A stretch of 60,025 bases of DNA from a virus (IMGVR_UViG_3300009136_000006:1-60025); one strand, 5' to 3'. Counted from the stretch's first letter, positions 7,091-60,025 are shown. The notes: generated by a model not told the origin, from the letters alone. Numbers and translations are program-made.

Positions 7091-8500
7091 ATGGACGAAA
7101 TGTTCGAAAATTGGTCAGAGACAAAAGCAGCATTGCTTGAAGGACTCTCACAAGATAAAAAGAAGATTGTAGCTCCTCTTCTTGAAAACCAGAAAAACCA
7201 CGTGTTGATGGAAACTGCAGCAGCAGGCGCAACAGTGGCTCATGACGTTGCAGGATTTAGAAAGATTTTAATCCCAATGATTCGTCGTGTAATTCCTGGT
7301 ACAATAGCAAGTGAGTTGGTTGGTGTTCAGCCAATGACAGGTCCAGTTGGACTTGTGTACTCTTTGCGTTACACATATAAGGAATCAGTAACTGATACTT
7401 CTAACAGCCCATTTGGTGCTCAGAGTATTACTGCTGGTGATGAAGCATTTGGTAACACACCTGCTCTTCGTTCTTTCTACTCTGGTGGTGCTTCCGCTGG
7501 TGTTGGTTCTCCAATTCCTGGTGATGCTCAAGCTCAAGCAGCTGGTGCGTCCGGTATTGGTCCATCCTCACCTGGTGACATCGACGGTACAGAAACAACT
7601 GGTGAAGCATGGCCTTCTAGCCTTGATATCTCTGCTACTACAGGCGACCGTTCATTCGGTGGTTCTGGTTCTTTCATTGAAGGATCTGGTGGTCGTAAGA
7701 TGGGTCTTGAAGTAGTTAGTCAGGCAGTTGAAGCTGGCTCACGTAAACTTCAAGCTGGTTGGACAATCGAAGCAATGCAAGATCTTAACGCTCAGCACGG
7801 ACTTGATATTGAGTCAGAAATGTCTCAAGCTCTTTCCGCTGAAATCGTTCAAGAAATTGATGCTGAAATCATCCAAGACCTTCTTGCACTTGCTGGAACT
7901 GTTGATTCATTTGACGGTGCTGGTGCTGGTGTATATGGTGGTGGCAGTTCTGGTAACTATGCTCCTGCATACGTTGGCGATCGTCTTGCTAACATTAGTG
8001 TAATCATCAACCGTGTTGCTAACGAGATTGGTCGTAAGACTCGTCGTGGTGTTGGTAACTTTGTAGTTGTTTCCCCAATGATTGTTTCTGTTCTTCAGTC
8101 TGCAAGCAAGTCAGTATTTGCTCCAGCTGTTGAAGGTTCTTTCAAAGGTCCTAACAACACAATGTTGGTTGGTACACTTAACGGTTCTATTAAGGTTTAT
8201 TCTTACCTTTGGAATCAAGCAGGTGCAGGTCTTGATCTTGGTGCTCCACAGGCTTCAAATGATGACGTTATCCTTGTTGGTTATAAAGGTGGTAACGGAG
8301 AAACTGATACAGGTTACTTCTACTGCCCTTACATTCCATTGATGAGTTCTGGTGTAGTTGTTAACCCAATTACTTTCCAACCAGTTGTTAGCTTGATGAC
8401 TCGCTACGGCAAGACATCTTTCACTAACACTACCTCTTCATTGGGTAACAGTGCTGATTACTACGGAAAAATCAACGTCAACGACCTTGACCTTGTATAA
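7091..8500 (+). CDS. major capsid protein (T4 gp23-like)
   Basis: VGVQPMTGPVGL, SRKLQAGWTIEAMQDL, GYFYCPYIPL, MTRYG motifs; strong codon bias. Confidence 0.97.
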   Translation: MDEMFENWSETKAALLEGLSQDKKKIVAPLLENQKNHVLMETAAAGATVAHDVAGFRKILIPMIRRVIPGTIASELVGVQPMTGPVGLVYSLRYTYKESVTDTSNSPFGAQSITAGDEAFGNTPALRSFYSGGASAGVGSPIPGDAQAQAAGASGIGPSSPGDIDGTETTGEAWPSSLDISATTGDRSFGGSGSFIEGSGGRKMGLEVVSQAVEAGSRKLQAGWTIEAMQDLNAQHGLDIESEMSQALSAEIVQEIDAEIIQDLLALAGTVDSFDGAGAGVYGGGSSGNYAPAYVGDRLANISVIINRVANEIGRKTRRGVGNFVVVSPMIVSVLQSASKSVFAPAVEGSFKGPNNTMLVGTLNGSIKVYSYLWNQAGAGLDLGAPQASNDDVILVGYKGGNGETDTGYFYCPYIPLMSSGVVVNPITFQPVVSLMTRYGKTSFTNTTSSLGNSADYYGKINVNDLDLV

Positions 8501-8530
8501 TCTGTAACGATTACACATAAAGTGACTTTA

Positions 8531-8556
8531 GAGCCCCGATTTATCGGGGCTTTTTT
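8531..8556 (+). terminator. Rho-independent terminator after capsid gene
   Basis: AGCCCCGAT-TT-ATCGGGGCT followed by T run. Confidence 0.9.
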
Positions 8557-8563
8557 GTGCCTG

Positions 8564-8592
8564 TTGACTTTAGGGAATAATATGAGTATAAT
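8564..8592 (+). promoter_or_regulatory. sigma70-type early promoter
   Basis: TTGACT-N17-TATAAT. Confidence 0.85.
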
Positions 8593-10048: not shown

Positions 10049-12955
10049 ATGGGTACGTTTGATTCATTTGCCGACAGTCCATTTCAAATTCGGACCGAAG
10101 GTCAAGAAATAACAATTATTTTTGCGAGAACCGGAGAAACAACCGGACGTATCTCGTGGAATATTCCTCCTCCAGCATTAGGTTGTAATGCTGATCAACA
10201 AGCCTATAATGGTATTGTTGTCACTATAGACAGTACTGGTACTGCGGTATCAAAGCAGCCTGTAGATAAAACAGTCTATACCGCAGATCCTACAGGGAAT
10301 GAAGATTTACATGCTGGTGACAAAATCGGAACATCATTAGTTGTTGGTGCATTCTATGAAGACAAAGTAACAACATTTCTTGACATAACAGGATTAACAT
10401 CTGATCAAGTTGTATATGCTTCGGGTTTTGCTGTTGATGCACAGAACAGATATCACACTGCAGGTGTCCACTCTTATTCTCTTGATTACGAAGGTGGTAA
10501 TGAAAAAGATCCAATAGCAAGTGCACAGTACGTTGTACTTGGAGTCGATGGAACAGATCCAACATTGTTAACTGGTGAAACTGAATACAACTTTACACTC
10601 AACGTTGATGGAACAGAACACGACCTTACGGTGAACGGAACAGATTCTTCAACATATGATCAACTTGTTGCTGCGATTAATAAAGAAATAGCATTAACCG
10701 AAAATCCTATTGAAGATGTTAATCCACCAAACGCTGGTGAGTATTATTGGAATTCTACAACAGAAAGATTGTTTTTGTGGGATGGATACGAAAATGTTGA
10801 ACAAACTGTCATTGCAGAAGACACTGCTCCAAATACACCAGCGACTGGAGATTATTGGTACAACCCAACTACAGAAATATTGTATCAGTGGAATGGTGCT
10901 TCTTGGGATGTTCAAGTATACATAAATTATTATAAAGATCCTACAGCACTGAATGGAAGTGATTATTGGTTTGATGGAACGAATGCATATGTGTGGGATG
11001 GAAACACATGGTGCCAAAATCCATTAAGTAACCAAACAGTAGATCCATCGTTGCCTGTATTGCCTGAATTTGGTACTTATTGGTATGATACTGTAAACCT
11101 TTTTCTTAATAAATGGAACGATCAAACCGTTTCGTGGGATGCTGTCGATGCTATATATTGGGGTGTTGATCCTAATGCGTTGGCCGTTAATACATATTGG
11201 TATGATGAAACAAACGCTGTTGTAAATCAGTGGGATGGTTCAGCTTGGAATTTAATTGCTGCTACAATAAGCAGTACCGAACCACCATTTCCTCCTCCAA
11301 ATTCTTATTGGTATAATCCTGACACTGAAGAATTGAAACAACGCAATCCAGCAAATACTGCTTGGGTCGATTTAACAATTCTTGTTTTTGCAGATGATCC
11401 AACTGATCGTACTTCATGTGGTTTGTGGTGGAACTCTGCTACTGATCTTCTTTACGTTTGGGACATCGTTACAGCAAGTTGGGATCAAGTAACTAACTTT
11501 TTGCAACAAGCAACTGATCCTGCTGCCGCTCCGACATTGCCAGTTGATCATATGTGGTACGAACCTACAACAATGATCTTGTATCGTTGGGATGGTTCAA
11601 TGTGGGTGACTGTAAATTACATTGACTACCCAACTGATCCAACACTTGCTCCAATTGATACTGTATGGTTTGATTCAACAAATTCATTGTGGTATGAAAG
11701 AAGTGGCTCTCCATTATCTTGGATGTTGTTTGATCCTATCGACGCAACTTCGGATCCTTCTATTCCAACAACTGGAACGTTCTGGTTCGATACTACAAAT
11801 ACAATATTGTATCAGTGGACAGGATCGCCTGGTGCTTGGGTTTCAATTCCATTCTCTACTATTCCTTTAACACCAGTTAATGGAACACTATGGTTTAATT
11901 TAAATGATGATGTTATGTATGAATGGAGTAGTACAGCGTGGATTGTCGCGACCTTAATTGCAACAGCAGAAATGTCTGGTGGCGATATAAAATTTACCAG
12001 TGCAACAAAATCGAGTCAGTCTCTTATCATTATAACTGATGGTGACTTATTCTCATCATTGACTCCAGCAGGACAACTTAGTAATATAATAATAGGTGCT
12101 GATGGAATTGATCCAGAACCGATGTATGCTCAACTTGGTGTTGGGACAGATGGGACTGTAGACGAAAGACGCGAATTGATGGATAGCATTCGAGCGCAAC
12201 TTGGTTACCCTGTTGTCGATGTAGAGTTGACAAAATACCAAATGGATACAGCGATAACAGCAGCGTTAGAATCTCTTCGTAAGAGAAGTTCTGCTGCATA
12301 CAACCGCACATTTTTCTTTGTAGATATTCCGGTCGGCGAACAAGCAATTTTCTTAACAGATAAAACTGTAGGTTTTAATAAAGTTGTAAACGTGCTTGGT
12401 GCTTACCGTGTAACATCAGCATTCCTTTCTACAGCTTTTGGTTCAGGTGTTTATGGACAAATCGCTTTGCAACATTTATATACAATGGGAACATTTGACT
12501 TATTGAGTTATCATCTTGTTGCTTCATATATTGAGGAATTAGAAGTAATGTTTGCAACACGATTAGTATACAATTGGAATGAGCAGACAAGATTGTTAGC
12601 ATTCCACCAAACATTTGGTGCGACTGGAACGATAAATGGATTGCCTGGTGGAGTTCAAGCAGAAAGAATTTTACTTGATGCTTCCATTGAAAGAACTGAA
12701 CAAGAATTATTAGCTGATCGTTGGACAAAGTCTTGGATTGAAAAATATGCATCAGCACAAGCTCGATTAATGCTTGCAGAGATCAGAGGAAAATATGCTT
12801 CATTGCCAGGTGCTGGTGGTGGTGTGTCACTTAATGCTGGTGAACTTATCAGCCGTGCCGATATTGATATGGCCGATTGTTATCAGCAACTTGAAGACTA
12901 CGTTGTTAATCCGGTTGAAGAATATGGAATCGGCGTTCAGTTTACAATAGGATAA
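10049..12955 (+). CDS. neck protein gp13-like with large Trp-rich repeat region
   Basis: C-terminal LGYPVVDVELT...Q and LPGAGGGVSLN motifs of gp13; central W-Y/F-x...L-Y-x-W-D/N-G-x-x-W repeats. Confidence 0.8.
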   Translation: MGTFDSFADSPFQIRTEGQEITIIFARTGETTGRISWNIPPPALGCNADQQAYNGIVVTIDSTGTAVSKQPVDKTVYTADPTGNEDLHAGDKIGTSLVVGAFYEDKVTTFLDITGLTSDQVVYASGFAVDAQNRYHTAGVHSYSLDYEGGNEKDPIASAQYVVLGVDGTDPTLLTGETEYNFTLNVDGTEHDLTVNGTDSSTYDQLVAAINKEIALTENPIEDVNPPNAGEYYWNSTTERLFLWDGYENVEQTVIAEDTAPNTPATGDYWYNPTTEILYQWNGASWDVQVYINYYKDPTALNGSDYWFDGTNAYVWDGNTWCQNPLSNQTVDPSLPVLPEFGTYWYDTVNLFLNKWNDQTVSWDAVDAIYWGVDPNALAVNTYWYDETNAVVNQWDGSAWNLIAATISSTEPPFPPPNSYWYNPDTEELKQRNPANTAWVDLTILVFADDPTDRTSCGLWWNSATDLLYVWDIVTASWDQVTNFLQQATDPAAAPTLPVDHMWYEPTTMILYRWDGSMWVTVNYIDYPTDPTLAPIDTVWFDSTNSLWYERSGSPLSWMLFDPIDATSDPSIPTTGTFWFDTTNTILYQWTGSPGAWVSIPFSTIPLTPVNGTLWFNLNDDVMYEWSSTAWIVATLIATAEMSGGDIKFTSATKSSQSLIIITDGDLFSSLTPAGQLSNIIIGADGIDPEPMYAQLGVGTDGTVDERRELMDSIRAQLGYPVVDVELTKYQMDTAITAALESLRKRSSAAYNRTFFFVDIPVGEQAIFLTDKTVGFNKVVNVLGAYRVTSAFLSTAFGSGVYGQIALQHLYTMGTFDLLSYHLVASYIEELEVMFATRLVYNWNEQTRLLAFHQTFGATGTINGLPGGVQAERILLDASIERTEQELLADRWTKSWIEKYASAQARLMLAEIRGKYASLPGAGGGVSLNAGELISRADIDMADCYQQLEDYVVNPVEEYGIGVQFTIG

Positions 12956-12958: not shown

Positions 12959-13288
12959 ATGAAACTACAAGAATTATGCGAAGGTGCAACATACATGAAA
13001 GAAATGTCTGATGACCAACGAGCTAAATATGACGAGTTGATTGATGAGTACAAAGAAATGTCAATGAAAGAAAGACGGGAAACATATAAGCCGTTTGGTA
13101 AGCTTGGAAAATTAACAAAACCAGAACAGGTACTTCGCCACAAAGTATTCGGTACAAATAGACACGATATGTCGTTTGATGCTGAATTCGCTGCAGGACG
13201 GAGAGGTAGTTTGGTCACAGAATACAAATGTATAGAGTGTGGCAAAGTTATTCGTCAAAACCAAAAAGGGAACAGAGTAAATTATTAA
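12959..13288 (+). CDS. hypothetical protein with His/CxxC zinc-binding motif
   Basis: 109 aa, H..H..CIEC; leader MKLQELCE. Confidence 0.6.
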   Translation: MKLQELCEGATYMKEMSDDQRAKYDELIDEYKEMSMKERRETYKPFGKLGKLTKPEQVLRHKVFGTNRHDMSFDAEFAAGRRGSLVTEYKCIECGKVIRQNQKGNRVNY

Positions 13289-13305
13289 AATAATAGGTAA
13301 TTAAA

Positions 13306-13584
13306 ATGAAATTAAAAAGAAAATTCAACGAAGAACTTAGCAAAATTACAGAAGCTGAAGATGTTCGTAAACGCCAGCAAAGAATTATAGCAAAGGCGGC
13401 AGATAGAATTGCTACAGATATTGAACAAGTTGCTGAAGAATTAACTGATCCTGGTGCTCAAAACCCAGACAAGAGACACGTTTTAGAAAACATACATTAT
13501 GTGCTGGAAGATATATTTGATCAACTTGAAGTTAATGGCTGGGACGTTGACGGAATGTTAAAAGACGATTACGTTGCTGACTAA
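13306..13584 (+). CDS. hypothetical helical protein
   Basis: 92 aa ORF with AGGT RBS; leader ending KITE. Confidence 0.6.
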   Translation: MKLKRKFNEELSKITEAEDVRKRQQRIIAKAADRIATDIEQVAEELTDPGAQNPDKRHVLENIHYVLEDIFDQLEVNGWDVDGMLKDDYVAD

Positions 13585-16023: not shown

Positions 16024-18543
16024 ATGGCTACATTAGTAAGTCCAGGCGTAAGTGTAACGGTAACGGATGAAAGTTTTTTCATTCCAGCAGCCGCATCCAC
16101 TGTACCGTTAATTTTTATTGCTACTGCTGCTGAAAAGGTTCAATCTGATGGACTTTCACCGGCGGCTGGTACTTATGAGAACGATGTTGTTCGAACTGTA
16201 ACATCTCTGACACAAAGTCTCGAGTTGTATGGAGTTCCATTATTTCTCGAAGATGCAAGTGGTCAGCAACTTCATGGTGATTCTCGTAACGAATATGGTC
16301 TTTTTGGACTAAACCAATTCTTAGGAATAGGTAACAGAGCTTTCGTAGTTCGCGCAAACGTTAACACAAACGACGATATTGACGCCGTTCGTGATTCTTG
16401 GGACTCCAAGATGACAACTAGCGGAATTACACTTGAAATTCTCGCACAAAACTTTATAAACGAATACAACGATGCAAACGGATTGATTCCAGCAGATTCT
16501 GGATATAAGACAACTATCACAACCAGTGAATTTATTTCATTATCCGAATCAGCAACTTCTGATATTTGGGATCTTAGTACTTTTAGTCCTCTCAGAGAGG
16601 ACTTCTTTGATGATGCCGGTGATCCTTCTTCAGCAACAGCTGGTGAGCAAACAGTTAACATGTCACTTAGTGACCAAGATGAAGTTGCACAAGTAACTCA
16701 GGTTGTTACAAATGGTGACAACAACGCAAATCGTCATGAAGGTAATTACTTTACTCTTCATTCAACAACTACTGATTACTACGTTTGGTATAATCTTAAT
16801 GGTGGTTCACCAGCAACAGTTGATCCTGGCCTTGCTGGATACACTGGCATTCCAGTAACATATGATTTAGATGATTCAGCAACAGTAATTGCTAATAAAA
16901 CTAGAGCAGCAATTAACGCTCTTGGTGGTTCACCATCAGCAGTATTCACAGCGACAAATATTACAAACACTGTAACAATTACTAATGACGTAGCTGGTGA
17001 TGCTACGAATGCAGTTGACGGTGGAGCTTCTCCATCCGAAGCAACTGGTTTCGTAATTACTACAAACACTGAAGGTGTTGACGCAGCAATTTACTCTGCT
17101 GTCGCATCTGGACTTGCGAATGATGCAACAGCATACACAGCAACAATTCTTGTTGATGGTACTGCTAACGTTGTAAGTATCGTAGGTAGCACAGCACAAA
17201 CATACGCTGACGTAATTACACAACTTGATATCAATCTTACTGGCGCAACATCTGCATTAGTATCACAAGGCGGTTCACCTGCGTTGTACGATATCGTTAT
17301 CACAAGCAGCACAACTGGTGCGACTTCTACAATCAGTATTACAGACGGAGCAACGATTCCATTGTTCGCAACATTAACTGATTTTGATAGTTTTGCAGAT
17401 CCTGTTGATGGCGTTTCTCCTGACTCAGCATTACTTGTTTATGCTAACGGATATTCACAACCATCTACTGGAACATATTCTGGTCTTGAAGGAATTGCAA
17501 ATAACTGGACAAGTGGTGGAACAGTATCTGATGAGTGGACACCTGCAGAAGCAGAAGCAACTCTTAATGGCGCGGCTGATGATTTCAAATTTACAGTAGA
17601 ATTTAAGAACGGAACAAGTCTTGGTGCAAACGACTCAGCACGTAGAGCAACTATCGTAACAGCTCTTCAAGCAACAGTCAACAGCAACACAGAAGTTCGT
17701 TCTGAAAACTTTGAATACAACTTGATCCTTTGCCCTGGTTATCACGAATTGGCTGACGAAATGTTAGCTCTTTCAGCGTTCATCAGTAACGAAGCCCTTG
17801 TTATTGGTGAAACACCAATGAACATGGATCCACAAGAAGTGGTTGCATGGGCAGGAACAACTGGACGTCAAAGTTCAACAGATATTGCTTACTACTACCC
17901 ACATTGTGAAGCTTCAAACCTTGACGGAGTAAACGTCTTTGTTGGAGCAAGTGGTACAGCTCTTCGCACATACGCATACAGTGATGAAGTTAGCCAATTG
18001 TGGTTCGCTCCTGCTGGAACACGTCGCGGATTGATTACAGGTGTAACTGAAATTGGTTACGTAACTGGTGATCTTGGATCTGCAACAACAATCGTTCCAT
18101 TGCACGCAAACCTTGGACAACGTGATGACATGTACAAATACTTCACTAACCTCAACCCACTTGTATTCTTCCCAGGAAGAGGATTGTTGGTTTGGGGACA
18201 GAAGACTTCTGCACCAGCAGCAAGTGCTCTTGACCGTGTAAGCGTTTCACGTCTTATTATGTACATCAGACGTCAATTGCGTAAGAATACTTTGGCATTT
18301 GTATTCGAACCAAATGATCAGCTTACAAGAGATAATCTTAAATCAGCTGTTGATGGATTCTTAGGTGACATCGTTATTAAACGAGGACTTTATGACTTTG
18401 CAACAGTTTGTGACGAAAGTAACAACACACCTGATCGTATTGATCGAAACGAAATGTATATTGATGTAGCTCTCAAGCCTGTCAAGGCAGCGGAATTCAT
18501 CTACATACCGATCCGCGTGGTTGCAACAGGTGCAGAGATTTAA
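16024..18543 (+). CDS. contractile tail sheath protein (T4 gp18-like) with insertion domains
   Basis: LVSPGVSVTVTDES start; WFAPAGTRRG, VWGQKT, FEPND, CDESNNTP, KAAEFIYI; TATAAATA at 15958-15965. Confidence 0.96.
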   Translation: MATLVSPGVSVTVTDESFFIPAAASTVPLIFIATAAEKVQSDGLSPAAGTYENDVVRTVTSLTQSLELYGVPLFLEDASGQQLHGDSRNEYGLFGLNQFLGIGNRAFVVRANVNTNDDIDAVRDSWDSKMTTSGITLEILAQNFINEYNDANGLIPADSGYKTTITTSEFISLSESATSDIWDLSTFSPLREDFFDDAGDPSSATAGEQTVNMSLSDQDEVAQVTQVVTNGDNNANRHEGNYFTLHSTTTDYYVWYNLNGGSPATVDPGLAGYTGIPVTYDLDDSATVIANKTRAAINALGGSPSAVFTATNITNTVTITNDVAGDATNAVDGGASPSEATGFVITTNTEGVDAAIYSAVASGLANDATAYTATILVDGTANVVSIVGSTAQTYADVITQLDINLTGATSALVSQGGSPALYDIVITSSTTGATSTISITDGATIPLFATLTDFDSFADPVDGVSPDSALLVYANGYSQPSTGTYSGLEGIANNWTSGGTVSDEWTPAEAEATLNGAADDFKFTVEFKNGTSLGANDSARRATIVTALQATVNSNTEVRSENFEYNLILCPGYHELADEMLALSAFISNEALVIGETPMNMDPQEVVAWAGTTGRQSSTDIAYYYPHCEASNLDGVNVFVGASGTALRTYAYSDEVSQLWFAPAGTRRGLITGVTEIGYVTGDLGSATTIVPLHANLGQRDDMYKYFTNLNPLVFFPGRGLLVWGQKTSAPAASALDRVSVSRLIMYIRRQLRKNTLAFVFEPNDQLTRDNLKSAVDGFLGDIVIKRGLYDFATVCDESNNTPDRIDRNEMYIDVALKPVKAAEFIYIPIRVVATGAEI

Positions 18544-26049: not shown

Positions 26050-26055
26050 TATTTG

Positions 26056-26084: not shown

Positions 26085-26107
26085 AGGGGCATAAAGAGGA
26101 GAAATAC

Positions 26108-29600: not shown

Positions 29601-30089
29601 TTAGTCTTCGTCTTTGTTTCGAAGGTTTTTCACGAATGTTGTGATACGTGATGGAGTCTTTTTTATGTTGGATACGACAATGCCAAATCGTGATGCACGA
29701 ACGTTATGAACGGTGATAAGAATTCTGCTCTTAATTGTATTAACAACATTCAATACATTAACGATGATATCACCACGTTTCTTACTAACAATATAGTTAC
29801 GCTCTGTTACTTTGCCACGAAACGTTACAATAATCTTAACAGGGATTTGAGGTTCTTTTGGAAACTGATATAGTGGGTCAACAGGCTTGTAAAATGTTTG
29901 AATTTCGCCTGGTGCTAATGGACGTGAACCGCCACCTCCACCACCAACTGGAGGAGGTTCGGGTGGAATAATCGGACTACCACCAACAATAATCTTGATA
30001 AAACCAAGATTAAAGATGTTGCCGATTACTAATCCGGTTTGATCACACCCCAGACCAAATGTGATTACTCCTGGTGCGACATCTGCCAT
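29601..30089 (-). CDS. hypothetical virion-associated protein
   Basis: 162 aa; Pro/Gly linker; GGAG RBS; within structural operon. Confidence 0.6.
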   Translation of the reverse strand: MADVAPGVITFGLGCDQTGLVIGNIFNLGFIKIIVGGSPIIPPEPPPVGGGGGGSRPLAPGEIQTFYKPVDPLYQFPKEPQIPVKIIVTFRGKVTERNYIVSKKRGDIIVNVLNVVNTIKSRILITVHNVRASRFGIVVSNIKKTPSRITTFVKNLRNKDED

Positions 30090-40200: not shown

Positions 40201-41427
40201 GCCTTTGCTTGGTCAAACACACACAATCGAGTGGTAGCTGTAGGAGATGACGGCAAAATTGCTACTATCGAAGAGTCCAATATGGGCAGCGGCGAAGGTC
40301 CGTTCTCTTTAGTAGCTAACGGCTCAAACCCATTATCAAACTTTACTGAAGTCCATTGGGATGAAACTGATGGGTTATTTATTGCGGTCAATGACGCAGG
40401 ACAAATATTACGATCAACTAATGGACTTGGTACTGGAGCATCTTTTGAATATTCTGGTTGGACTGCTATCGCAGCTGATCCATTCTCTGGTGGAAACATT
40501 GATTTTATTGTTACTGGTACAATTGGCATAACTGAATGGTGGATGATAGCTGGAAGCACACAACTATATACATCGACTGATGCCGGCATAACTTGGACTG
40601 TAAGAACAACAAATCTTACTACATCAATTACAGCACTTTCCTATGATTCAACCAACGAGGTATTCGTAGCAGGAACCTCTGACGGAGACTTTTCTTGGAC
40701 ATCCAATGGAACGGCGTGGACACTTGACAACACGTCGGTTACTGCAATTAAAGCCGCCGGAAGCGGTCGTATCAACTCAATGGTTTGGGACATCGCTGGG
40801 GGTTTATGGCAGTTTATAGTTGATCACAATGCGACTTCTGTTGGCACCTATAGTTGCACTGGAACTTTTACAGGATTTGCAATTCACGAAGGCTCAACGA
40901 CAGCGAACATGGGTTACCGTAATACAGGCGTTTACCAAACCGGGATTGCATCCCGCTCAATTTGGTCTGGTGGTACCACAATAGGACAATATTGGTCTGG
41001 TGCTACTGATACAGGACCATCGGCTCACGCAAGCATGGTAGAAACTATTACTGCTGTTTTTGGTAAACCAGGAACGTTAGGCGATGCCGCTGATATTTTT
41101 TACGGCGATAATAACGGCGATATAGAGTTATGGGCTACTGCAAAAAGAACTGGATGGCAAGGGGCGTTGGTTGGATCGGTAAATGGTATTGCTTGGTCGT
41201 CGGTATCAGACAGAATGATAGCAGTTGGTAACGCTGGCGAAATTAAAACCATAGCTGGAGCGGCTATCGAATCAGGCGGTTGGTTTAATGTTGTCACACC
41301 ATTTAGCGGTAACATAAATGCAGTAGCATATAGCGCATCAGACGACATATTTATTTGCGTTTGCGCCGACGGTGTAATAGCAAGATCAACAGATGGTATC
41401 AGCTATCTTGCAGGATCACCAGCATAA
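37261..41427 (+). CDS. large fibre/adhesin protein with two BNR/Asp-box beta-propeller-like modules
   Basis: start moved to ATG 37261 (GAGGT RBS; aligns with paralog); short collagen-like GxxG stretch, ATKQYVD, STDGGLTW/STDDGVTW/STDAGITW boxes. Confidence 0.75.
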   Translation: MKVSFRQGIIRHPVSNGLQDFLRVNGSYVDLVADNGDIDINFAHILANYYYTESNTVSQAWGPFTASTDQWLYWDIDLLTGARTFGITLLEPITSDSEPTSPADDQHWFDSVSTTMFVYSSGAWNARVRVFSAMFNGVNVFTSMSGGLLQYPFAGSQVSLGTETNFSGRIVFDGTGAVVTKTSTELFTTEDQFFAEGSDISAVRLESNVHQATTYETIGAYNIVKYMSDGRIQLAAYNDIGDTVVGVVPEATLQGNIGTVIVQGSIKNISWTWTTVNAPLWINDSGELTETDLSISDPSGHPVKHVPVGRVISSNEIIFEQGLGGIGRQGPQGDAGLDGGSAWGTIAGTLSDQTDLQTELNAKADNSHTQAATTVTVTAAGNISSANVQAALEELDTEKLAVTGGTLTGSLILDGDPSVALGAATKQYVDNSTSPPAGANTQLQYNSSGAFGASANLTYDGTAIDLDGRIELSSATSGTPNVRFEQTGETADEGNWEIKVTDNEFSIHAANDAYDSISEMIKAERGTGELVSVLNIGSTEVDQLELSAATVVNVNTPLVSLASDTASAGFNIPEGVAPTSPVDGDMWVTIDDIFAQINGTSESLLGGGGGVPAGGTVGQFLIKQSATDGDAIWDDLGASVAGSEYCPGYGYTFINVGSFSVPGVDVTNLIATGRNLKFIEGTTFTYGEVVSSSFGGGVTTVIMDMNGAEELTAGVTEFCMVTGATTWSPAAADPFSGNAIQDIVSGSVGGTIYWVIVGNGGRIAYSTDGGLTWTTSSSGTVENLYQVDFNPNAETFVAVGNGEVITRSTDGINWTADTVQVNTIKTDGDGDVLGVIYHPKLGVDEWMIAFQSAAVGTIAMAYSTDDGVTWTVFETSLVTNATSIRDSGLNVFRTTANVLQGVMYASSADDVYYVTDRTDISDQVLINNSGRAKVTALISRDWTLGGGLAHFQGFADGEIARSTSNFETTPNTTFGTSAIRAFAWSNTHNRVVAVGDDGKIATIEESNMGSGEGPFSLVANGSNPLSNFTEVHWDETDGLFIAVNDAGQILRSTNGLGTGASFEYSGWTAIAADPFSGGNIDFIVTGTIGITEWWMIAGSTQLYTSTDAGITWTVRTTNLTTSITALSYDSTNEVFVAGTSDGDFSWTSNGTAWTLDNTSVTAIKAAGSGRINSMVWDIAGGLWQFIVDHNATSVGTYSCTGTFTGFAIHEGSTTANMGYRNTGVYQTGIASRSIWSGGTTIGQYWSGATDTGPSAHASMVETITAVFGKPGTLGDAADIFYGDNNGDIELWATAKRTGWQGALVGSVNGIAWSSVSDRMIAVGNAGEIKTIAGAAIESGGWFNVVTPFSGNINAVAYSASDDIFICVCADGVIARSTDGISYLAGSPA

Positions 41428-41456: not shown

Positions 41457-43826
41457 GTGAGAGTACCATTTAGACAAGGAATCATTCGTTATCCATACAG
41501 CGGATCGTTGCAAAACTTTCTTCAGATTAATGGAAGTTACATTAATTTAAACGCTGCCAATGGACAAACTGAAGTAACACTTGCTCATCGCGGAACAAAT
41601 TACCTTCACATTGAAAACAGTACGGTTACGAATGCTTGGGGACCTTTCACTGCGAGTACAGATCAGTGGTTGTATTGGGATATTGATTTATTAACTGGTG
41701 CTCGTACATTTGGAATTACATTAGTTGAACCAGTATTCAGTGCGACTGAACCAACATCTCCTGTCGCAGATCTTCATTGGTTTGATTTAACAAATAATTT
41801 TATGAACGTATACTCAGGCGGTTCATTTTCTGAAGTCGTCCGAGTGTTTGCTGCCAAATTTGACGGGAATGTAACATTCTCTCCAGTTGCAGCAGGTTTA
41901 ACAAATCTTCCATACGCTGGAACACAAGTAGGATTAAATATTAGCAACTTCTCTGGAAGAATCATTTTTGATAATCTTGGAAGTGTTATAACAAGAGAAA
42001 ATAGCGAACTGTTTACAACCGAAGATCAATTCTTCGCAGCAGGTGCTCAAATAAATGCAGTTCGCTTGGAGTCAAATGTTCACTATGTAGAAGCAAGTGA
42101 AACACTTGGTGCATGGACTGTTGTTAAATATACAACAGGTGGATTGGTAACACCAGCTGAATATGGCGATACTGGAAGTTCAACAATTGCGATCGTTCTT
42201 CAAGACACAGCTGTCGGAGAAGTCGCAGCAACAATAATTCAAGGTGTCGTTAAAAGTTCTATTTGGACTTGGCCAACAATAGGTACAGAATTATGGGTTA
42301 GCACGAATGGTTTACTGGTAGATGTCGATCCAAGTATATCTGATCCATTAACATATCCTGTTAAACAAGTTCCTGTCGCTCGTGTTCTTTCAACAACAGA
42401 AATTATCTTTGAACAAGGATTGGGTGGAATAGGAAGACAAGGAGTAAAAGGAGATGATGGATTAGACGGTGGATCAGCATGGGGAACTATTGCTGGAACA
42501 CTATCTGATCAAACTGACTTGCAAGCTGAATTAAACGGCAAGGCTGACAACAGCCACACTCAAGCAGCGACAAGTGTTACATTTCAGGCTGCTGGAAATC
42601 TTTCGTCTGCAAATGTTCAAGCCGCACTGGAAGAATTAGATACAGAGAAAGTAGCAGTCGCTGGTAGTACAATGACTGGACTTCTTATTTTAAGTGGAGA
42701 TCCTTCAAACGTATTAGGAGCTGTAACAAAACAATACGCTGACGCAATAGATAATGCAAAAGTTGCGATTGCAGGTGACACCATGACTGGATTGTTAACA
42801 CTCAGTGGTGATCCTTCAACAAGTCTCCAAGCAGCTACAAAACAATATGTTGATAACTTACTTGGTGGAAGTGATCTTGGTGATTTGTCAGACGTCACAA
42901 TTACAAGTCCATCCCAAAGTCAAGCATTGGTATATGCAGGAAGTCCTGCGATATGGATTAACGGAGACATAATCGCTTCGACAGTTCCCGTTACTCCTTT
43001 TGGTGGTAGTCCAACTGGAATTCAATCAACTAACGTACAAGACGCATTAGAAGAATTGAATGCTGATATTATAGCAAACACTGCTGGTCTTCAACCTTAT
43101 GATCTTGCTGGTCAAGTTGTTGGATTACCTGATGCAGGTGCAACAGTTTTTCGTTTCTTATCGGTACGAGATTTTACAATTCCGACATCAGGTTCACTCG
43201 CAATGGCAGATGTTGCATCAACAGGTTCTGCTGTGTTCGATGTTGACGTTAATAATACAACAGAAATGTCAATTACATTCGCCACATCAGCTACTGGAAC
43301 AGTTACTATGATCGGTTCACCAGCAGTAGATTTAATTATTAATACTGGTGACGTAATTACAATCGTCGCGCCTGATCCTCAAGATGCAACTTTATCAGAT
43401 ATTGAAATGACATTATTTGGATATATTGATCCGTTGTATGTCGCACCAGTTCCTGATTTTACTCCAGGCGTAGAAGGTTTTACTATTACAGAAGGCAATG
43501 TCGCATTTGATTTTGGTTATTCCGATACAACCGATCACACAGGAATGGGATCAGTCGCTCCGACAACAACATCCGGCCCGTTTGATTTGAAAGCAGCATA
43601 TATTCAAAACCTCGGAATTTATTTCAATATTCGTATTTCAGGCAATCACGCAGAAGCAGCTATAACTCAAGTTGAACTTGTCGGATATGAAACTGTTACA
43701 ACAGCAGGTGATTTGATTTCTCATAGTTATGATGCCGGAGATGATTATACGTGGTGGCAGTGGACTGTCGCAGGTGCGCACTGGAACGGCAGTGGGACAG
43801 AGGATATCAACATAACATTCTCTTAA
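41457..43826 (+). CDS. fibre protein, paralog of 37261..41427 with a different C-terminus
   Basis: first ~430 aa align with the upstream gene; TKQY repeats, LGDLSDV motif; late promoter 41428-41435. Confidence 0.75.
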   Translation: MRVPFRQGIIRYPYSGSLQNFLQINGSYINLNAANGQTEVTLAHRGTNYLHIENSTVTNAWGPFTASTDQWLYWDIDLLTGARTFGITLVEPVFSATEPTSPVADLHWFDLTNNFMNVYSGGSFSEVVRVFAAKFDGNVTFSPVAAGLTNLPYAGTQVGLNISNFSGRIIFDNLGSVITRENSELFTTEDQFFAAGAQINAVRLESNVHYVEASETLGAWTVVKYTTGGLVTPAEYGDTGSSTIAIVLQDTAVGEVAATIIQGVVKSSIWTWPTIGTELWVSTNGLLVDVDPSISDPLTYPVKQVPVARVLSTTEIIFEQGLGGIGRQGVKGDDGLDGGSAWGTIAGTLSDQTDLQAELNGKADNSHTQAATSVTFQAAGNLSSANVQAALEELDTEKVAVAGSTMTGLLILSGDPSNVLGAVTKQYADAIDNAKVAIAGDTMTGLLTLSGDPSTSLQAATKQYVDNLLGGSDLGDLSDVTITSPSQSQALVYAGSPAIWINGDIIASTVPVTPFGGSPTGIQSTNVQDALEELNADIIANTAGLQPYDLAGQVVGLPDAGATVFRFLSVRDFTIPTSGSLAMADVASTGSAVFDVDVNNTTEMSITFATSATGTVTMIGSPAVDLIINTGDVITIVAPDPQDATLSDIEMTLFGYIDPLYVAPVPDFTPGVEGFTITEGNVAFDFGYSDTTDHTGMGSVAPTTTSGPFDLKAAYIQNLGIYFNIRISGNHAEAAITQVELVGYETVTTAGDLISHSYDAGDDYTWWQWTVAGAHWNGSGTEDINITFS

Positions 43827-55961: not shown

Positions 55962-55974
55962 TAGGAGAATGATA

Positions 55975-57272: not shown

Positions 57273-57729
57273 AAAGCTTGATATATTTCGCGTATTAGAC
57301 AACACAAGTAAAAAGAATGTTGACTTCTACGCAGACTTAACCGAAGAAGAACAAAAGGGATATGTCCCACTTGTTACGATGCGGTGGCTGACTGGAACAA
57401 AGGACGCAAGACAAATTTATTTTATCAATGAACTTGTTAACCCTTTTGTGTTTGCGTTTACTAAACACAAAGAATTATTGTATCAGTTGATGACATGTTG
57501 CACAACCGGAAAGGTGCAACGATATTATTGGAACAAAGCACAATCAAAAAAGAGTACAAGTACACCAGCAATTATTAGTGTGATTAAAGAGTTCTTTAAT
57601 TATAGTACGATACACGCAATTGAATCACTACCACTATTGGCAAACGAAGATATTTTAGAATATGCTGAACAATTGGGTAGACAGAAAGAAGACATCGCAA
57701 AAATTAAAAAAGAATTGAAGACTCGATGA
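57256..57729 (+). CDS. clamp loader small subunit (T4 gp62-like)
   Basis: YVPLVTMRWL, INELVN, HKELLYQL, IKEFFNYS pattern; near gp44-like gene. Confidence 0.65.
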   Translation: MTQKTRKLDIFRVLDNTSKKNVDFYADLTEEEQKGYVPLVTMRWLTGTKDARQIYFINELVNPFVFAFTKHKELLYQLMTCCTTGKVQRYYWNKAQSKKSTSTPAIISVIKEFFNYSTIHAIESLPLLANEDILEYAEQLGRQKEDIAKIKKELKTR

Positions 57730-58406
57730 ACAAAGAAAGATTTAGTTGTAATTATTGTACTGCAACATTCGTAACAGAAGATCGTTATGTTAAGCATTAC
57801 TGCAAACAAATGCAACGGATAGACGAACTGCAAACTCCAACTGGACAAGCAGCGTGGGCGTTTTATCAACGGTGGATGAAAGCATATCGTCGGATGGTGC
57901 CACATATTGATTCTTTCTCCAAATCAAAATATTATCAATCGTTTGTTAGATTCGCCGAAAGTGTCAAGAGGTTAAATATTCCTGATCCTGAAGCGTTTAT
58001 CAATCTGATGAAAGAGAAAGATATTTCACCAACGATTTGGACAAACGATCAAGTGTATGCTTTATATCTCGAATTCCTTGATCGTCGAGCAACTCCAATT
58101 AGTCAAGCGAAGATAACAATCAACACAATATTTAATATTGCTGACGCTGCTGACTGTGAAACTGGAGAAGTGTTTAACGTACTTGAACCAAACGAAGTGA
58201 TCATGCTTCTTCGAGAAAGACGGTTATCTCCGTGGATTTTATTATTCAGTAGAAAATTTAAGGAAATGCTTATTAATCGCGTTAGTGATGAGCAACGAAT
58301 CATAATGGAATCTATTATTAGACCACAATATTGGACGATTAAATTTAGTAAGCATCCTGAAGATGTTGTCACAATGAGAAAGTACGTCGAAGAGTTAGAT
58401 ATTTAA
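57726..58406 (+). CDS. C2H2-type zinc finger protein
   Basis: FSCNYCTATF......KHYC; RLSPWILL. Confidence 0.7.
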   Translation: MNKERFSCNYCTATFVTEDRYVKHYCKQMQRIDELQTPTGQAAWAFYQRWMKAYRRMVPHIDSFSKSKYYQSFVRFAESVKRLNIPDPEAFINLMKEKDISPTIWTNDQVYALYLEFLDRRATPISQAKITINTIFNIADAADCETGEVFNVLEPNEVIMLLRERRLSPWILLFSRKFKEMLINRVSDEQRIIMESIIRPQYWTIKFSKHPEDVVTMRKYVEELDI

Positions 58407-58521
58407 TACCCCAAACTTCCTGTTTGGCTCCTACCATAAATATAACATTAGCGGATTTATGCCCTCGCATAAATACCACTTATACGTATGTTTAACATAT
58501 TTTAAGGAGAGCGTATTACAA

Positions 58522-59685
58522 ATGTCAGCAATTTATATCATAACGCACACGGATCCAGCAGTAGGTGCAATTACAGTCGCTCCGAACAAGTTTGATGGAC
58601 CAGAATCAACATATGGTGAAAGTACTAACCTTACTTTGTATGGTGCTGGATCGTTGCAATACGGTTCAGAATTCAACGAAAACTTTGTAAAGCTGCTGGA
58701 AAATTTTTCCAGTCCAGGAATTCTTGCTGGAAGTCCACCTTCGTGGGTTCCTGCAACTCTTGTTGGTAGCCCTGGAACTGAAGTCATTGCTGATGTTACT
58801 ACGAATTACTTTAATCCAGCAACAGTTCAAGTTGGACAAACTTGGTTTAACTCTTCAGCTCAAAAATTGATGGTATATGATGGAACTGACTGGATTGTTA
58901 ATGGTCGTGTTTCATCAGGACCTCAAGCACCAAGCGGAAAACAGATTGGTGATTTGTGGTTTGACACTAGCGCAAATGCACTTAAAGCATTAGAATCTAC
59001 TGGTCCTGATGTTTGGTCTGGTGTAGCTGGTGACTATCTTCTTAAAGCTGGTGATACGATGTCAGGCGATCTTCAGATGTCATCGAACGAGGTGCTTGGA
59101 TTGCCTGCATCTCCTTCAGCAACTGGTGCTGCTTCAAAAGAATATGTTGACACACAAGATGCACTCAAACTTAATTTAGCTGGTGGAACATTGACGGGAG
59201 ATTTAACTCTTGATGGGGATCCAACATCAAATCTTCATTCTGCGACAAAACAATATGTAGATACAGGAACAGCTTTATTGCAAAAAGTTTATCCGCTTAA
59301 TTCACTTTATATGTCAGTCGCATCTACAAATCCTAACACTATTCTTGGGTTTGGAACTTGGACAGCAATATTAGGACAATTTTTGGTTGGAACTGGTGAT
59401 AACGGAGACGGATTTAACTATGGATCTGGTGGTGCTACTGGTGGTGATAAAGATGCGGTTGTCGTATCTCACAGTCACGGATCCGCTGGATCTCACACCC
59501 ACTCCACTTCAGGTGGTGGTACACCAGCAAATACAGGAGCGAGTGGTGACACGAAAGCAGTACTTGACCAACCTGGCAATACTGGGTCGTCTGGATCTCA
59601 CACTCACCCATCAGCTGGTGTGTCTGGAACTGATATGAACATTCCACCATATTTTGCAATTTATATTTGGCAGAGAACAGCATAA
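58522..59685 (+). CDS. tail fibre / baseplate wedge-like protein
   Basis: YG...NENFVKLLENFS, GQTWFN, ATKQYVD, YPLNSLYMS...NP.T.LGFGTW, HSH/HTH tip, NIPPYFAIYIWQRTA; start moved to ATG 58522 (AAGGAG RBS). Confidence 0.8.
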   Translation: MSAIYIITHTDPAVGAITVAPNKFDGPESTYGESTNLTLYGAGSLQYGSEFNENFVKLLENFSSPGILAGSPPSWVPATLVGSPGTEVIADVTTNYFNPATVQVGQTWFNSSAQKLMVYDGTDWIVNGRVSSGPQAPSGKQIGDLWFDTSANALKALESTGPDVWSGVAGDYLLKAGDTMSGDLQMSSNEVLGLPASPSATGAASKEYVDTQDALKLNLAGGTLTGDLTLDGDPTSNLHSATKQYVDTGTALLQKVYPLNSLYMSVASTNPNTILGFGTWTAILGQFLVGTGDNGDGFNYGSGGATGGDKDAVVVSHSHGSAGSHTHSTSGGGTPANTGASGDTKAVLDQPGNTGSSGSHTHPSAGVSGTDMNIPPYFAIYIWQRTA

Positions 59686-60025
59686 TGACTACACTTTACG
59701 TAATTTCACATACAGATACTGCATTAGATGATATTGTTATAAACAGAACATCAGAAAATGTAGATACAAATTTAAGTTTATATGGTTCGGGTAGAATTGA
59801 ATATGGTGAAGGATGGGATACAAACTTTCTTCATCTTCTAGAAAATTTTTCAAGTACAGGAGTGCAAGCAGGAAGTCCTCTTGCATATGAACCAGATCCA
59901 GCTTACTTTGATAAAGCAAAAGTTCAAATTGGACAAACTTGGTATAATAAATCAATCGATAAATTGATGGTATATGATGGATCGTCTTGGATTATTAATG
60001 GGCGAGTTTCATCAGGTCCTCAAGC
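59685..60025 (+). CDS. paralogous fibre protein, truncated by window end
   Basis: manual translation MTTLYVISHTD...NLSLYGSGRIEYG...FLHLLENFSSTGVQAGSPLAY...GQTWYN...NGRVSSGPQ. Confidence 0.8.
   Translation, partial: MTTLYVISHTDTALDDIVINRTSENVDTNLSLYGSGRIEYGEGWDTNFLHLLENFSSTGVQAGSPLAYEPDPAYFDKAKVQIGQTWYNKSIDKLMVYDGSSWIINGRVSSGPQ

What the first reader, a model, noticed from the sequence alone, without database searches (positions are those of the whole stretch)
7091..60025. Virion-wide Gly-Ser-Pro tag: candidate post-translational modification site on capsid, neck, sheath and fibres
Seen: GSP occurs 19 times in 11 predicted virion proteins. Capsid VGSPIP; neck gp13 SGSPLS, TGSPGA; sheath GGSPAT, GGSPSA, GGSPAL; 29601 GGSPII; 30720 AGSPYD, AGSPQQ; 32127 VGSPSF, AGSPDD; 34853 TGSPIV; 37261 ends LAGSPA-stop; 41457 AGSPAI, GGSPTG, IGSPAV; 58522 AGSPPS, VGSPGT; 59685 AGSPLA. 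I found none in portal, protease, terminase or the replication and early proteins. Codons vary (ggttctcca, ggatcgcct, ggttcacca, ggaagtcct, ggtagccct), using both TCN and AGY serine, so this is not a DNA repeat and selection appears to act on the peptide. In gp13 the tag sits in the turn of otherwise regular repeats (LYQWTGSPGAW versus LYQWNGASW), and once it is a bare C-terminal appendage. A rough composition estimate gives only about 3 expected. Inference: a recognition site for a phage-encoded O-glycosyltransferase, kinase or other transferase, or a docking site for a decoration protein, coating the whole particle. Virion glycosylation is known in some mycobacteriophages; I know of no such shared tag in T4-like phages. 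No modifying enzyme can be assigned within this window.
Basis: partly seen in the sequence, partly recalled or inferred. Interest (0 to 1): 0.9.

Follow-up and report, generated by a model that had tools for sequence, protein, structure and literature searches.

The report
Gly-Ser-Pro motif studding phage virion proteins
A three-residue motif, Gly-Ser-Pro, has been inserted again and again into loops of the capsid, neck, sheath and fibre proteins of this uncultured jumbo phage and some of its relatives, which looks like a recognition site for an unknown protein-modifying or binding factor.

Summary
The window holds 19 GSP in 11 of 58 ORFs against 3.6 expected. GSP ranks 1 of 8000 tripeptides, and no shuffle reached 19, whether whole-protein or local-block. 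Paralogy, low complexity and DNA repeats do not explain it.

The excess replicates independently. GSP is also the top tripeptide in four related metagenomic phage contigs (observed/expected 4.4-11). Thirteen other relatives, including XacN1 and a complete 350-kb genome, show none (0.8-2.15).

The trait is polyphyletic, with at least 3 changes on a marker tree; sister phages differ 15 vs 5 over the same orthologues. Half of the alignable sites (97 of 195) sit on gaps in GSP-poor homologues, against 21.5% of control tripeptides. The three sites I could place in models lie in beta-hairpin loops.

All three positions are specific: Ser 5.4x but Thr 1.1x.

So peptide-level selection on a surface-loop motif is shown. 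The modification reading is only inferred. I found no glycosyltransferase or kinase in the window or in about 530 kb of GSP-rich contigs, all of which are fragments. A Ser-directed modification sequon is my best guess (about 0.4). A purely structural loop module is the main rival (about 0.3).

The parts
7505..7513 (+). GSP site, major capsid protein (ORF 7091-8500), residue 139
   Evidence: It lies in a variable-length loop. GSP is kept in 3 of 3 closest homologues that have the loop (L100, L147, L137); L113/L114 have ASP; more distant ones lack the loop. The segment 127-200 is not alignable to T4 gp23.
11705..11713 (+). GSP site, Ad2/gp13-like neck protein (ORF 10049-12955), residue 553
   Evidence: In the AF2 model it is in the loop between strands E547-552 and E557-561. 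It falls on a gap in cultured relatives.
11822..11830 (+). GSP site, gp13-like protein, residue 592
   Evidence: Loop between E586-590 and E597-600. Gap in relatives.
16804..16812 (+). GSP site, tail sheath (ORF 16024-18543), residue 261
   Evidence: It lies in insertion domain 200-361, which most relatives lack. P0002 and P0003 keep it. The model is low-confidence here.
16927..16935 (+). GSP site, tail sheath, residue 302
   Evidence: P0002 keeps it with different flanks. Low-confidence model region.
17272..17280 (+). GSP site, tail sheath, residue 417
   Evidence: Hairpin loop between E408-414 and E422-428. Kept in L002, L100 and P0002 with changed flanks.
29973..29981 (-). GSP site, ORF 29601-30089 (162 aa, unknown), residue 37
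   Evidence: No PHROG or Pfam hit. The G001 orthologue lacks the site.
31485..31493 (-). GSP site, ORF 30720-31547 (Syn5 gp55-like), residue 19
   Evidence: Gap in panel homologues.
31293..31301 (-). GSP site, ORF 30720-31547, residue 83
   Evidence: Homologues have GLSP or GLTP nearby.
34245..34253 (-). GSP site, ORF 32127-34769 (Syn5 gp53-like structural protein), residue 173
   Evidence: Shared with the G001 orthologue.
33783..33791 (-). GSP site, ORF 32127-34769, residue 327
   Evidence: Syn5 gp53 has GGT plus a 2-residue gap at this place. Shared with G001.
35552..35560 (-). GSP site, ORF 34853-36715 (620 aa), residue 386
   Evidence: Homologue in G001, and beside the gp53-like gene of virus Rctr197k.
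41413..41421 (+). GSP site three residues from the C-terminus of the 1402-aa fibre-like ORF 37219-41427 (ends GSPA-stop)
   Evidence: The N-terminal 430 aa are 61% identical to ORF 41457.
42939..42947 (+). GSP site, fibre-like ORF 41457-43826, residue 495
43005..43013 (+). GSP site, ORF 41457-43826, residue 517
   Evidence: It sits inside the widespread fibre motif ...P.G.I.STNVQxAIEEL. Only 1 of 19 instances of that motif found in 112 homologues carries GSP, and it is this one, as an extra loop segment.
43314..43322 (+). GSP site, ORF 41457-43826, residue 620
58729..58737 (+). GSP site, tail protein ORF 58459-59685, residue 91
   Evidence: Cultured relatives have GI, GAP or GFP here. Paralogous to the 59667 site.
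58765..58773 (+). GSP site, ORF 58459-59685, residue 103
   Evidence: Gap in relatives.
59871..59879 (+). GSP site, ORF 59667-60023 (runs off the window), residue 69
   Evidence: Relatives have GNP, GAP or GFP at the aligned place.

Best explanation
Shown: GSP is a positively selected short linear motif. It is installed largely by 2-6-residue loop insertions on the outward-facing virion proteins (capsid outer loop, neck, sheath, fibre/baseplate-like proteins) of a polyphyletic subset of an uncultured clade of XacN1-related jumbo myoviruses.

Inferred: the motif is a sequon. A Ser-directed transferase, most plausibly a cytoplasmic O-glycosyltransferase encoded by the phage or the host, would recognise G-S-P at the start of strand-loop-strand turns and modify the serine as virion proteins fold. 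This would coat every exposed surface of the particle. Lineages that have the enzyme accumulate sites; sister lineages without it do not. Neither the enzyme nor the chemistry is identified.
For: (1) Enrichment is robust: 19 vs 3.6, rank 1 of 8000, and 0 of 1000 and 0 of 4x400 shuffles reach it.

(2) It replicates independently. GSP is rank 1 of 8000 in G001 (29 vs 4.1), G002 (73 vs 10.1), G004 (46 vs 10.4) and G014 (75 vs 6.8). G003 is intermediate (12 vs 3.4). 13 other genomes or contigs have observed/expected 0.8-2.15.

(3) Every position is specific. Over 242 sites, G.P has S at 5.4x but T at 1.1x.SP has G at 5.4x, and GS. has P at 5.1x. All are about 1.0x in GSP-poor genomes.

(4) The trait is bimodal and labile. 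A 2519-column marker tree needs at least 3 changes. G014 (11x) is sister to G005 (1.35x) with 100% SH-aLRT. Over the same orthologues the counts are G014 vs G005 15 vs 5, G004 vs G005 23 vs 5, window vs G006 9 vs 1, and window vs G008 7 vs 0. One 975-aa protein has 10 sites where its 53%-identical orthologue has 0.

(5) Sites arise as loop insertions: 97 of 195 on gaps, against 21.5% of controls, Fisher p 7e-18.

(6) Sites turn over while density persists. In 80 sheath homologues (window excluded) GSP occupies 27 alignment columns, rank 1 of 2974 tripeptides relative to expectation; the other five orders occupy 1-10 columns. Window and G001 share 7 sites of 16 and 12.

(7) 3 of 3 sites that could be placed in models lie in beta-hairpin loops. 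This is the acceptor geometry reported for the Aah/TibC O-heptosyltransferases (PMC3835316, passages).

(8) There is precedent in the family. The XacN1 paper reports two glycosyltransferases and at least two virion glycoproteins (PMC5852040, passages). Its GT/carbamoyltransferase cluster is found only in the three phages that carry Thr-Pro-rich tracts.

(9) Tag-like placements occur: one site is a C-terminal GSPA-stop, and one sheath carries tandem AGSP repeats (L146).
Against: - No transferase was found. There are no PHROG, Pfam or NCBIfam enzyme hits of that kind in the window. The five GSP-rich contigs gave 0 of 5 for GT2, GT1/4 (two models), GT9 and Pkinase. They also have no XacN1-type GT next to the conserved ORF329 homologue.
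- Subtractive comparison found no sizeable gene family shared by GSP-rich genomes and absent from GSP-poor ones.
- Site conservation between window and G001 (7 of 16) is not clearly above the 33% baseline for any tripeptide.
- In the gp13-like repeats, GSPxxW is a regular longer variant of the DG[SNA]xW turn, which reads as structure.
- Many O-glycosyltransferases also accept Thr, yet GTP is not enriched.
- Exposure was not computed. Two of three sheath sites lie in model regions with pLDDT below 50.
Confidence: 0.4

Rival explanations
1. GSP is a purely structural loop module and carries no covalent modification. Gly (positive phi), Ser and Pro would make a rigid turn that ends one beta-strand and starts the next. 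Lineages under some physical pressure (protease load, temperature, aggregation of huge beta-rich proteins) would favour it when loops are lengthened.
For: - 3 of 3 sites placed in models are hairpin loops followed by strands.
- GSPxxW is a recurrent alternative to the DGSxW turn in the gp13-like repeats of several phages, with Trp at +3 enriched 5.2x.
- Flanks favour small residues at -1.
- No enzyme was found.
Against: - General turn preferences would also admit Thr, Asp and Asn before Pro. Here GTP, GDP and GNP are 1.1x, 0.7x and 0.9x.
- It gives no reason for a bimodal, polyphyletic distribution with 10 vs 0 sites between 53%-identical orthologues.
- It gives no reason for a bare C-terminal GSPA.
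- The other orders of the same three residues are not enriched.
Confidence: 0.3
2. GSP is a non-covalent recognition motif: a docking site for a decoration or cement protein, an assembly chaperone or a prolyl isomerase that acts on many virion proteins.
For: - The motif is restricted to assembled, exposed virion parts.
- Small lineage-restricted ORFs of unknown function exist. The 9056-9946 family lies between the capsid and neck genes in window, G001 and G002 only. A 102-157-aa ORF is shared by G002, G004 and G014 only.
Against: - No candidate family is shared by all GSP-rich contigs.
- The 9056-9946 protein has no informative match in Pfam, PHROGs, NCBIfam or the ESM Atlas.
- Three residues are little surface for specific binding.
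- Sites turn over rapidly, unlike fixed docking sites.
Confidence: 0.12
3. Proline, not serine, is the target: prolyl hydroxylation by a 2OG-Fe(II) oxygenase, possibly followed by glycosylation.
For: A PF13640 (prolyl-4-hydroxylase-type) gene is present in GSP-rich G002. Pro is as strictly required as Ser.
Against: PF13640 was found in 1 of 5 GSP-rich contigs. It was also found in 3 of 16 GSP-poor records above the cut-off (G007, G009, G010), so it does not track the trait. None is in the window.
Confidence: 0.05
4. There is no function: the pattern is a mutational by-product (templated micro-insertions that happen to encode G-S-P) or a statistical accident of a scan over many windows.
For: Half of the sites are insertions. 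The scan examined very many windows, so a p of 1e-8 alone could arise somewhere by chance.
Against: - It replicates as the top tripeptide in four other contigs, largely at non-homologous positions.
- Serine is encoded by both TCN and AGY, and codon use matches the genome's, so no common DNA template is visible.
- 91 of 195 sites are substitutions rather than insertions.
Confidence: 0.06

Closest known systems
Virion glycosylation in phages: mycobacteriophage capsid and tail-tube glycosylation (recalled; only search listings that cite it were seen), and the XacN1 virion glycoproteins with phage glycosyltransferases (PMC5852040, passages)
   Same: Structural proteins of the particle would carry a modification made in the infected cell. 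XacN1 is the nearest cultured relative by capsid (68.6% identity).
   Different: Those systems come with recognisable phage glycosyltransferase genes, and none was found here. No dispersed tripeptide sequon is described for them. XacN1-type phages carry long (V/L)TP(T/S) tracts rather than GSP. Which XacN1 proteins are glycosylated is given only in a supplement I could not see.
Aah/TibC autotransporter O-heptosyltransferases (PMC3835316, passages)
   Same: They glycosylate mainly Ser residues of beta-rich surface proteins. [quoted passage not shown] That this occurs in the cytoplasm is recalled, not seen in the passages.
   Different: Aah has no sequence consensus, whereas here the tripeptide is strict. 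No GT9 gene was found in the window or in five GSP-rich contigs.
Sequon-type modification sites on viral surface proteins (N-X-S/T glycan shields; established knowledge, recalled)
   Same: A short motif over-represented on exposed surfaces. Positions turn over while density is kept. The motif is often gained by loop insertions.
   Different: Different residues and chemistry. These are non-enveloped phage particles assembled in the bacterial cytoplasm. No modification has been demonstrated.
Pro/Thr- or Pro/Ala/Ser-rich low-complexity linkers
   Same: Same residue classes. One relative's sheath has tandem AGSP repeats (L146).
   Different: In the window the sites are single, dispersed and embedded in ordinary sequence. 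Block shuffles that keep local composition give only 3.8-4.8. Spacing is not periodic.

Membership tests
Phage virion O-glycosylation system | Phage-encoded glycosyltransferase gene(s) | tested here: inconclusive
   None among the 58 window ORFs (55 scanned with PHROGs, 20 with Pfam and 10 with NCBIfam, the last two overlapping). 0 of 5 GSP-rich contigs for PF00535, PF00534, PF13692 and PF01075. No homologue of XacN1 ORF328, ORF333 or ORF334. The window and these contigs are fragments (18-44% complete), so absence is not established.
Phage virion O-glycosylation system | Glycan mass on virion proteins | not testable with these tools
   Needs mass spectrometry or glycan staining of particles. 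The phage is uncultured.
Aah/TibC-type Ser O-glycosylation | [quoted passage not shown] | tested here: met
   Sheath 417 lies between E408-414 and E422-428. gp13-like 553 lies between E547-552 and E557-561, and 592 between E586-590 and E597-600. This is 3 of 3 assessable sites out of 19. The models have moderate confidence (mean pLDDT 71.6 and 63.4).
Aah/TibC-type Ser O-glycosylation | GT9-like heptosyltransferase encoded with the substrate | tested here: not met
   PF01075 gave 0 of 5 GSP-rich contigs, and there is none in the window.
Sequon-type surface modification site | Motif over-represented with position-specific residue requirements | tested here: met
Sequon-type surface modification site | Motif density co-varies with presence of the modifying enzyme | tested here: inconclusive
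   No co-varying family of enzyme size was found. The genomes of GSP-rich phages are incomplete.
Low-complexity linker or collagen-like repeat | Tandem or periodic arrangement, locally biased composition | tested here: not met
   The contexts are unrelated. Block shuffles do not reproduce the excess. Gaps between sites are irregular.
Signature of a shared (paralogous) domain | Sites lie at equivalent positions of homologous domains | tested here: not met
   Self-BLAST links only 58459:91 with 59667:69. By contrast, dispersed tripeptide excesses in control windows of relatives (3 of 21 windows) all come from paralogous small-gene families with extended shared context.

The most novel reading that the evidence does not exclude
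A particle-wide modification code in tailed phages. G-S-P would be a sequon read by an as yet unrecognised cytoplasmic Ser transferase, either a novel-fold phage protein or a host enzyme. That enzyme would decorate capsid, neck, sheath and fibres alike. The trait is gained and lost between sister phages, and on gain dozens of sequons are written into surface loops by micro-insertions. That would be a phage counterpart of a viral glycan shield.
Probability: 0.3. Interest if true: 0.9.

Novelty: new variant of a known kind. Interest (0 to 1): 0.78.

Why it matters
If the serine is modified, this would be the first defined sequon for modification of a tailed-phage particle. It would also show that whole virion surfaces can be rewritten quickly by short insertions. 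That bears on phage stability, adsorption, recognition by bacterial defence and by animal immune systems, and on engineering of phage surfaces.

Even if unmodified, a three-residue motif enriched 4-11 fold, present in some phages and absent in their sisters, marks a strong unknown selective agent acting on virion surfaces.

It also gives a simple sequence statistic (GSP observed/expected) with which to sort uncultured jumbo phages and to look for the responsible gene by phylogenetic profiling.

I found nothing in print. 'Gly-Ser-Pro' with 'phage' returned 3 unrelated papers. Searches on virion glycosylation and modification described no such motif (listings only).

Tried and rejected
- DNA repeat or restriction-site explanation: rejected. 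Both serine codon families are used and codon use equals the genome's.
- Global, per-protein, dipeptide and local-composition explanations: rejected.
- Paralogous domains, collagen-like or linker repeats: rejected.
- Chance from scanning many windows: rejected by replication.
- Cupin_2 gene next to the gp13-like gene in G001, G002 and G004 looked specific to GSP-rich contigs. It is absent from the window's syntenic place, and it dropped out once more GSP-poor genomes were added.
- DUF488, peptide deformylase and cytidylyltransferase-like ORFs likewise dropped out.
- 2OG oxygenase PF13640 does not track the trait.
- ORFs 9056-9946 and 21537-23006: Pfam, PHROGs, NCBIfam and the ESM Atlas gave nothing usable.
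- Megablast of the structural region against GenBank phages found no match. Sheath scans of IMG/VR and of metagenome contigs gave only 3 relatives each.
- The sheath model is too uncertain in the insertion domain (residues 200-361, pLDDT below 50) to place sites 261 and 302.
- Solvent exposure could not be computed because model coordinates are not returned.
- Complex prediction, read laying, the Rfam tools and the search of protein representatives were not used.
- Of 17 long related records, 14 were fetched. G010, G011 and G013 were not, G012 lacks its first 24 kb, and G014 lacks its last 293 bases.

Full report
**What the window is.** The 60,025-base window is the whole held record. It is a fragment of a jumbo T4-like myovirus. 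The capsid protein is 68.6% identical to Xanthomonas phage XacN1, about 58% to Xoo-sp13 and the Stenotrophomonas phages CM1/RAS14, and 47% to Ralstonia phage RsoM2USA. There is no nucleotide-level match in GenBank phages.

PHROGs give baseplate hub, portal, prohead protease, major capsid protein (7091-8500), a 968-aa Ad2/gp13-like neck protein (10049-12955), sheath stabiliser, an 839-aa sheath (16024-18543), tube, head closure, terminase, and a replication/recombination block at 44.7-58.4 kb. Most ORFs between 28.6 and 44.5 kb have no family.

- Composition predicts 3.5-3.6. GSP is rank 1 of 8000 tripeptides (p 9.8e-9).
- 0 of 1000 per-protein shuffles reached 19 (max 10).
- A dipeptide-based expectation is 6.4-7.1, and GSP still ranks first.
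- Shuffling within blocks of 8-40 residues keeps local composition and gives 3.8-4.8; 0 of 400 per block size reached 19.
- GPS, SGP, SPG, PGS and PSG occur 4, 5, 5, 0 and 4 times.
- Serine uses TCN 12 times and AGY 7 times, and all three codon sets mirror genome usage.
- Self-BLAST links only one pair of sites.

As a control I cut four related genomes into 21 windows of similar size. Ten had a top tripeptide from Thr-Pro low complexity. Three had a dispersed excess at p of 1e-8 or lower, and all three came from paralogous small-gene families with long shared context. The window's sites share no such context.

One correction: zero GSP in the other 47 ORFs is not significant by itself (1.44 expected, P = 0.24).

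**Relatives without the motif.** Whole genomes of XacN1, Xoo-sp13, RAS14 and RsoM2USA show 22 vs 24.3, 19 vs 19.9, 17 vs 18.0 and 14 vs 17.5 (ranks above 4000).

Six GSP-bearing ORFs have no BLASTP homologue in those four genomes. At the 9 window sites that can be aligned, none of the four relatives has GSP. Most sites fall on gaps; two align with GNP, GAP or GFP.

**Relatives with the motif.** Homologues of the sheath insertion region include P0002, which keeps all three sites despite changed flanks, and P0012, with 5 GSP against 0.24 expected.

A panel of 103 loci around the sheath gene gave 128 vs 68.2 in 1044 distinct ORFs. The excess is concentrated in sheath (53 vs 12.9) and gp13-like proteins (23 vs 9.3). 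Terminase (0 vs 3.6) and tube (0 vs 2.5) have none.

Counting alignment columns rather than sequences damps shared ancestry. On that count, GSP occupies 27 columns in 80 sheaths with the window excluded. That is rank 1 of 2974 tripeptides relative to expectation; the other five orders occupy 1-10 columns. In gp13-like proteins the signal is weaker (11 columns, rank 89 of 2369).

**Whole related contigs.** I fetched 14 of 17 long related records. GSP is again the top tripeptide of 8000 in four of them:

| Record | Size | GSP observed | Expected |
|---|---|---|---|
| G001 | 68 kb | 29 | 4.1 |
| G002 | 155 kb | 73 | 10.1 |
| G004 | 148 kb | 46 | 10.4 |
| G014 | 100 kb | 75 | 6.8 |

G003 is intermediate (12 vs 3.4). 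G005-G009, G012 and G015-G017 are not enriched (observed/expected 0.8-2.15). These include a complete 350-kb genome and a 90%-complete one.

GSP-dense proteins are large fibre- or baseplate-like ORFs with 5-14 sites each and irregular spacing. Over the 242 sites the flanks are weak: small residues at -1, Ala or Pro at +1, Trp at +3. The core is strict: G.P has Ser 5.4x and Thr 1.1x.SP has Gly 5.4x, GS. has Pro 5.1x. All are about 1.0x in GSP-poor genomes.

**Evolution.** I built a tree from sheath, terminase, gp14-like and gp13-like proteins (2519 columns). It places window+G001 with G002+G003 in one clade (95% SH-aLRT). G004 and G014 fall in another clade, interleaved with GSP-poor G008 and G005. 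G014 and G005 are sisters (100%). At least 3 changes are needed.

The contrast holds over the same orthologues:

| Comparison | GSP-rich | GSP-poor |
|---|---|---|
| G014 vs G005 | 15 | 5 |
| G004 vs G005 | 23 | 5 |
| window vs G006 | 9 | 1 |
| window vs G008 | 7 | 0 |
| window vs XacN1 | 6 | 1 |

. A 975-aa G014 protein has 10 sites where its 53%-identical G005 orthologue has none. Typical changes are TAG----AV becoming YSGSPLIAIA and GVA------GED becoming GAAGSPQIIGQD.

Of 195 alignable sites in GSP-rich phages, 97 lie on gaps in the best GSP-poor homologue, against 21.5% of control tripeptides (Fisher 7e-18). Another 91 are substitutions and 7 are identical. 42 further sites lie in proteins with no such homologue, and 5 lie outside the aligned span.

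Window and its closest relative G001 (70% identity over the markers) have 16 and 12 sites in orthologues and share 7. The baseline for any tripeptide is 33%, so site-by-site conservation is modest and turnover is real.

**Where the sites sit.**

- *Sheath.* In the sheath model (mean pLDDT 71.6), site 417 is in the loop between two strands. Sites 261 and 302 lie in an insertion domain modelled below pLDDT 50.
- *Neck protein.* In the gp13-like model (mean pLDDT 63.4) about eleven 'yWyD..t..LY.WDG..W' repeats form small sheets, and both GSPs are hairpin loops. GSPxxW is a two-residue-longer variant of the usual DG[SNA]xW turn.
- *Capsid.* The capsid site lies in a variable loop within residues 127-200, which do not align with T4 gp23. 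By position this is probably the insertion-domain region, which in T4 forms protrusions on the outer capsid surface (PMC9546572, passages). That mapping is an inference. Within the loop, GSP is the conserved element in 3 of 3 closest homologues that have it.
- *Fibre.* In fibre ORF 41457 one site is an extra segment inside the widespread '...P.G.I.STNVQxAIEEL' motif: 1 of 19 motif instances in 112 homologues.
- *gp53-like protein.* Syn5 gp53 has GGT plus a gap where ORF 32127 has AGSPD.

**Search for a writer or reader.** No glycosyltransferase or protein kinase appears among the window's ORFs. The five GSP-rich contigs (about 530 kb) gave 0 of 5 for PF00535, PF00534, PF13692, PF01075 and PF00069.

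PF13640 occurs in G002, but also in GSP-poor G007, G009 and G010.

Subtracting 13 GSP-poor genomes leaves only small unknown ORFs. One is the 9056-9946 family (window, G001, G002). Another is a 102-157-aa ORF (G002, G004, G014) that would lie just beyond the window's left end.

All GSP-rich records are 18-44% complete, so this is absence of evidence only.

**Context from the family.** The XacN1 paper reports two glycosyltransferases and at least two virion glycoproteins (PMC5852040, passages; the supplement was not seen). Homologues of its ORF333/ORF334 cluster occur only in Xoo-sp13 and RAS14. Those, with XacN1, are the three phages whose big proteins carry long (V/L)TP(T/S) tracts. So glycosylated Ser/Thr-Pro-rich virion proteins are plausible in this group, but that is a parallel and not evidence about GSP.

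**Verdict.**

- Shown: GSP is a strict, peptide-level, positively selected motif. It is written largely by micro-insertions into loops of outward-facing virion proteins, in a polyphyletic subset of this clade.
- Inferred: it is read by something lineage-specific.
- I favour a Ser-directed modification sequon (0.4) over a purely structural loop module (0.3), a docking motif (0.12), prolyl hydroxylation (0.05) or a non-functional by-product (0.06).

Noticed in passing
Relatives W01 (Xoo-sp13), W02 (XacN1), W03 (RAS14); e.g. Xoo-sp13 108622-111639, XacN1 272200-280671: These three cultured phages carry very long (V/L)-T-P-(T/S) low-complexity tracts in many large proteins (TPT 300 vs 44 expected in Xoo-sp13), including homologues of window ORFs 58459 and 59667. 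The same three phages, and no other genome examined, hold the XacN1 ORF333 carbamoyltransferase / ORF334 glycosyltransferase cluster. The XacN1 paper reports virion glycoproteins.
   Followed up: partly
window 30720-36715, minus strand: ORFs 32127-34769, 34853-36715 and 30720-31547 resemble Synechococcus podovirus Syn5 genes 53, 54 (weak) and 55. Their transcription order in the window (34853, 32127, 30720) puts the 54-like gene ahead of the 53-like one, differing from the order in Syn5 and in virus Rctr197k, which is 53, 54, 55. This is a structural cassette shared between a T7-like cyanophage and this jumbo myovirus. I recall Syn5 gp53/gp54 as the 'horn' proteins, but no call confirmed that.
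   Followed up: partly
window 37219-38550 and 41457-42745: The two fibre-like ORFs share a 61%-identical N-terminal 430 aa and then diverge completely, so they are paralogous fibres with exchanged distal parts. A segment of 58459 (170-272) is related to both.
   Followed up: no
window 10049-12955: The 968-aa neck (Ad2/gp13-like) protein contains about eleven copies of a Trp-rich repeat 'yWyD..t..LY.WDG..W', each modelled as three short strands. This accounts for the second-ranked tripeptide WFD.
   Followed up: partly
window 16600-17100 (sheath residues about 200-361): The window's sheath has an extra insertion domain that most relatives lack. Its best outside matches include non-sheath 'beta strand repeat-containing' proteins of 1000-1300 aa (P0004-P0007), which suggests a shuffled surface module.
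   Followed up: no
L146:4194-6095 (sheath of an IMG/VR contig): A sheath loop carries tandem AGSPA / AHAGSP repeats (six GSP within about 30 residues). This is a low-complexity version of the motif.
   Followed up: no
G001 50292-50771, G002 38338-38784, G004 25821-26213; window 12959-13584: A Cupin_2 protein is encoded between the gp13-like and gp14-like genes in three relatives. The window has two unrelated small ORFs at that place, one with a CxxC pair.
   Followed up: partly
window 55948-56907: A 319-aa ORF in the replication block shares a 31-residue stretch (48% identity) with the portal protein (residues 293-323) and a weak Portal_T4 Pfam hit. It had no homologue in any of the 18 other genomes compared.
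   Followed up: no
G004 136669-137265, G014 691-1269: Two of the related phage contigs encode a peptide deformylase (Pfam E-value 6e-42).
   Followed up: no
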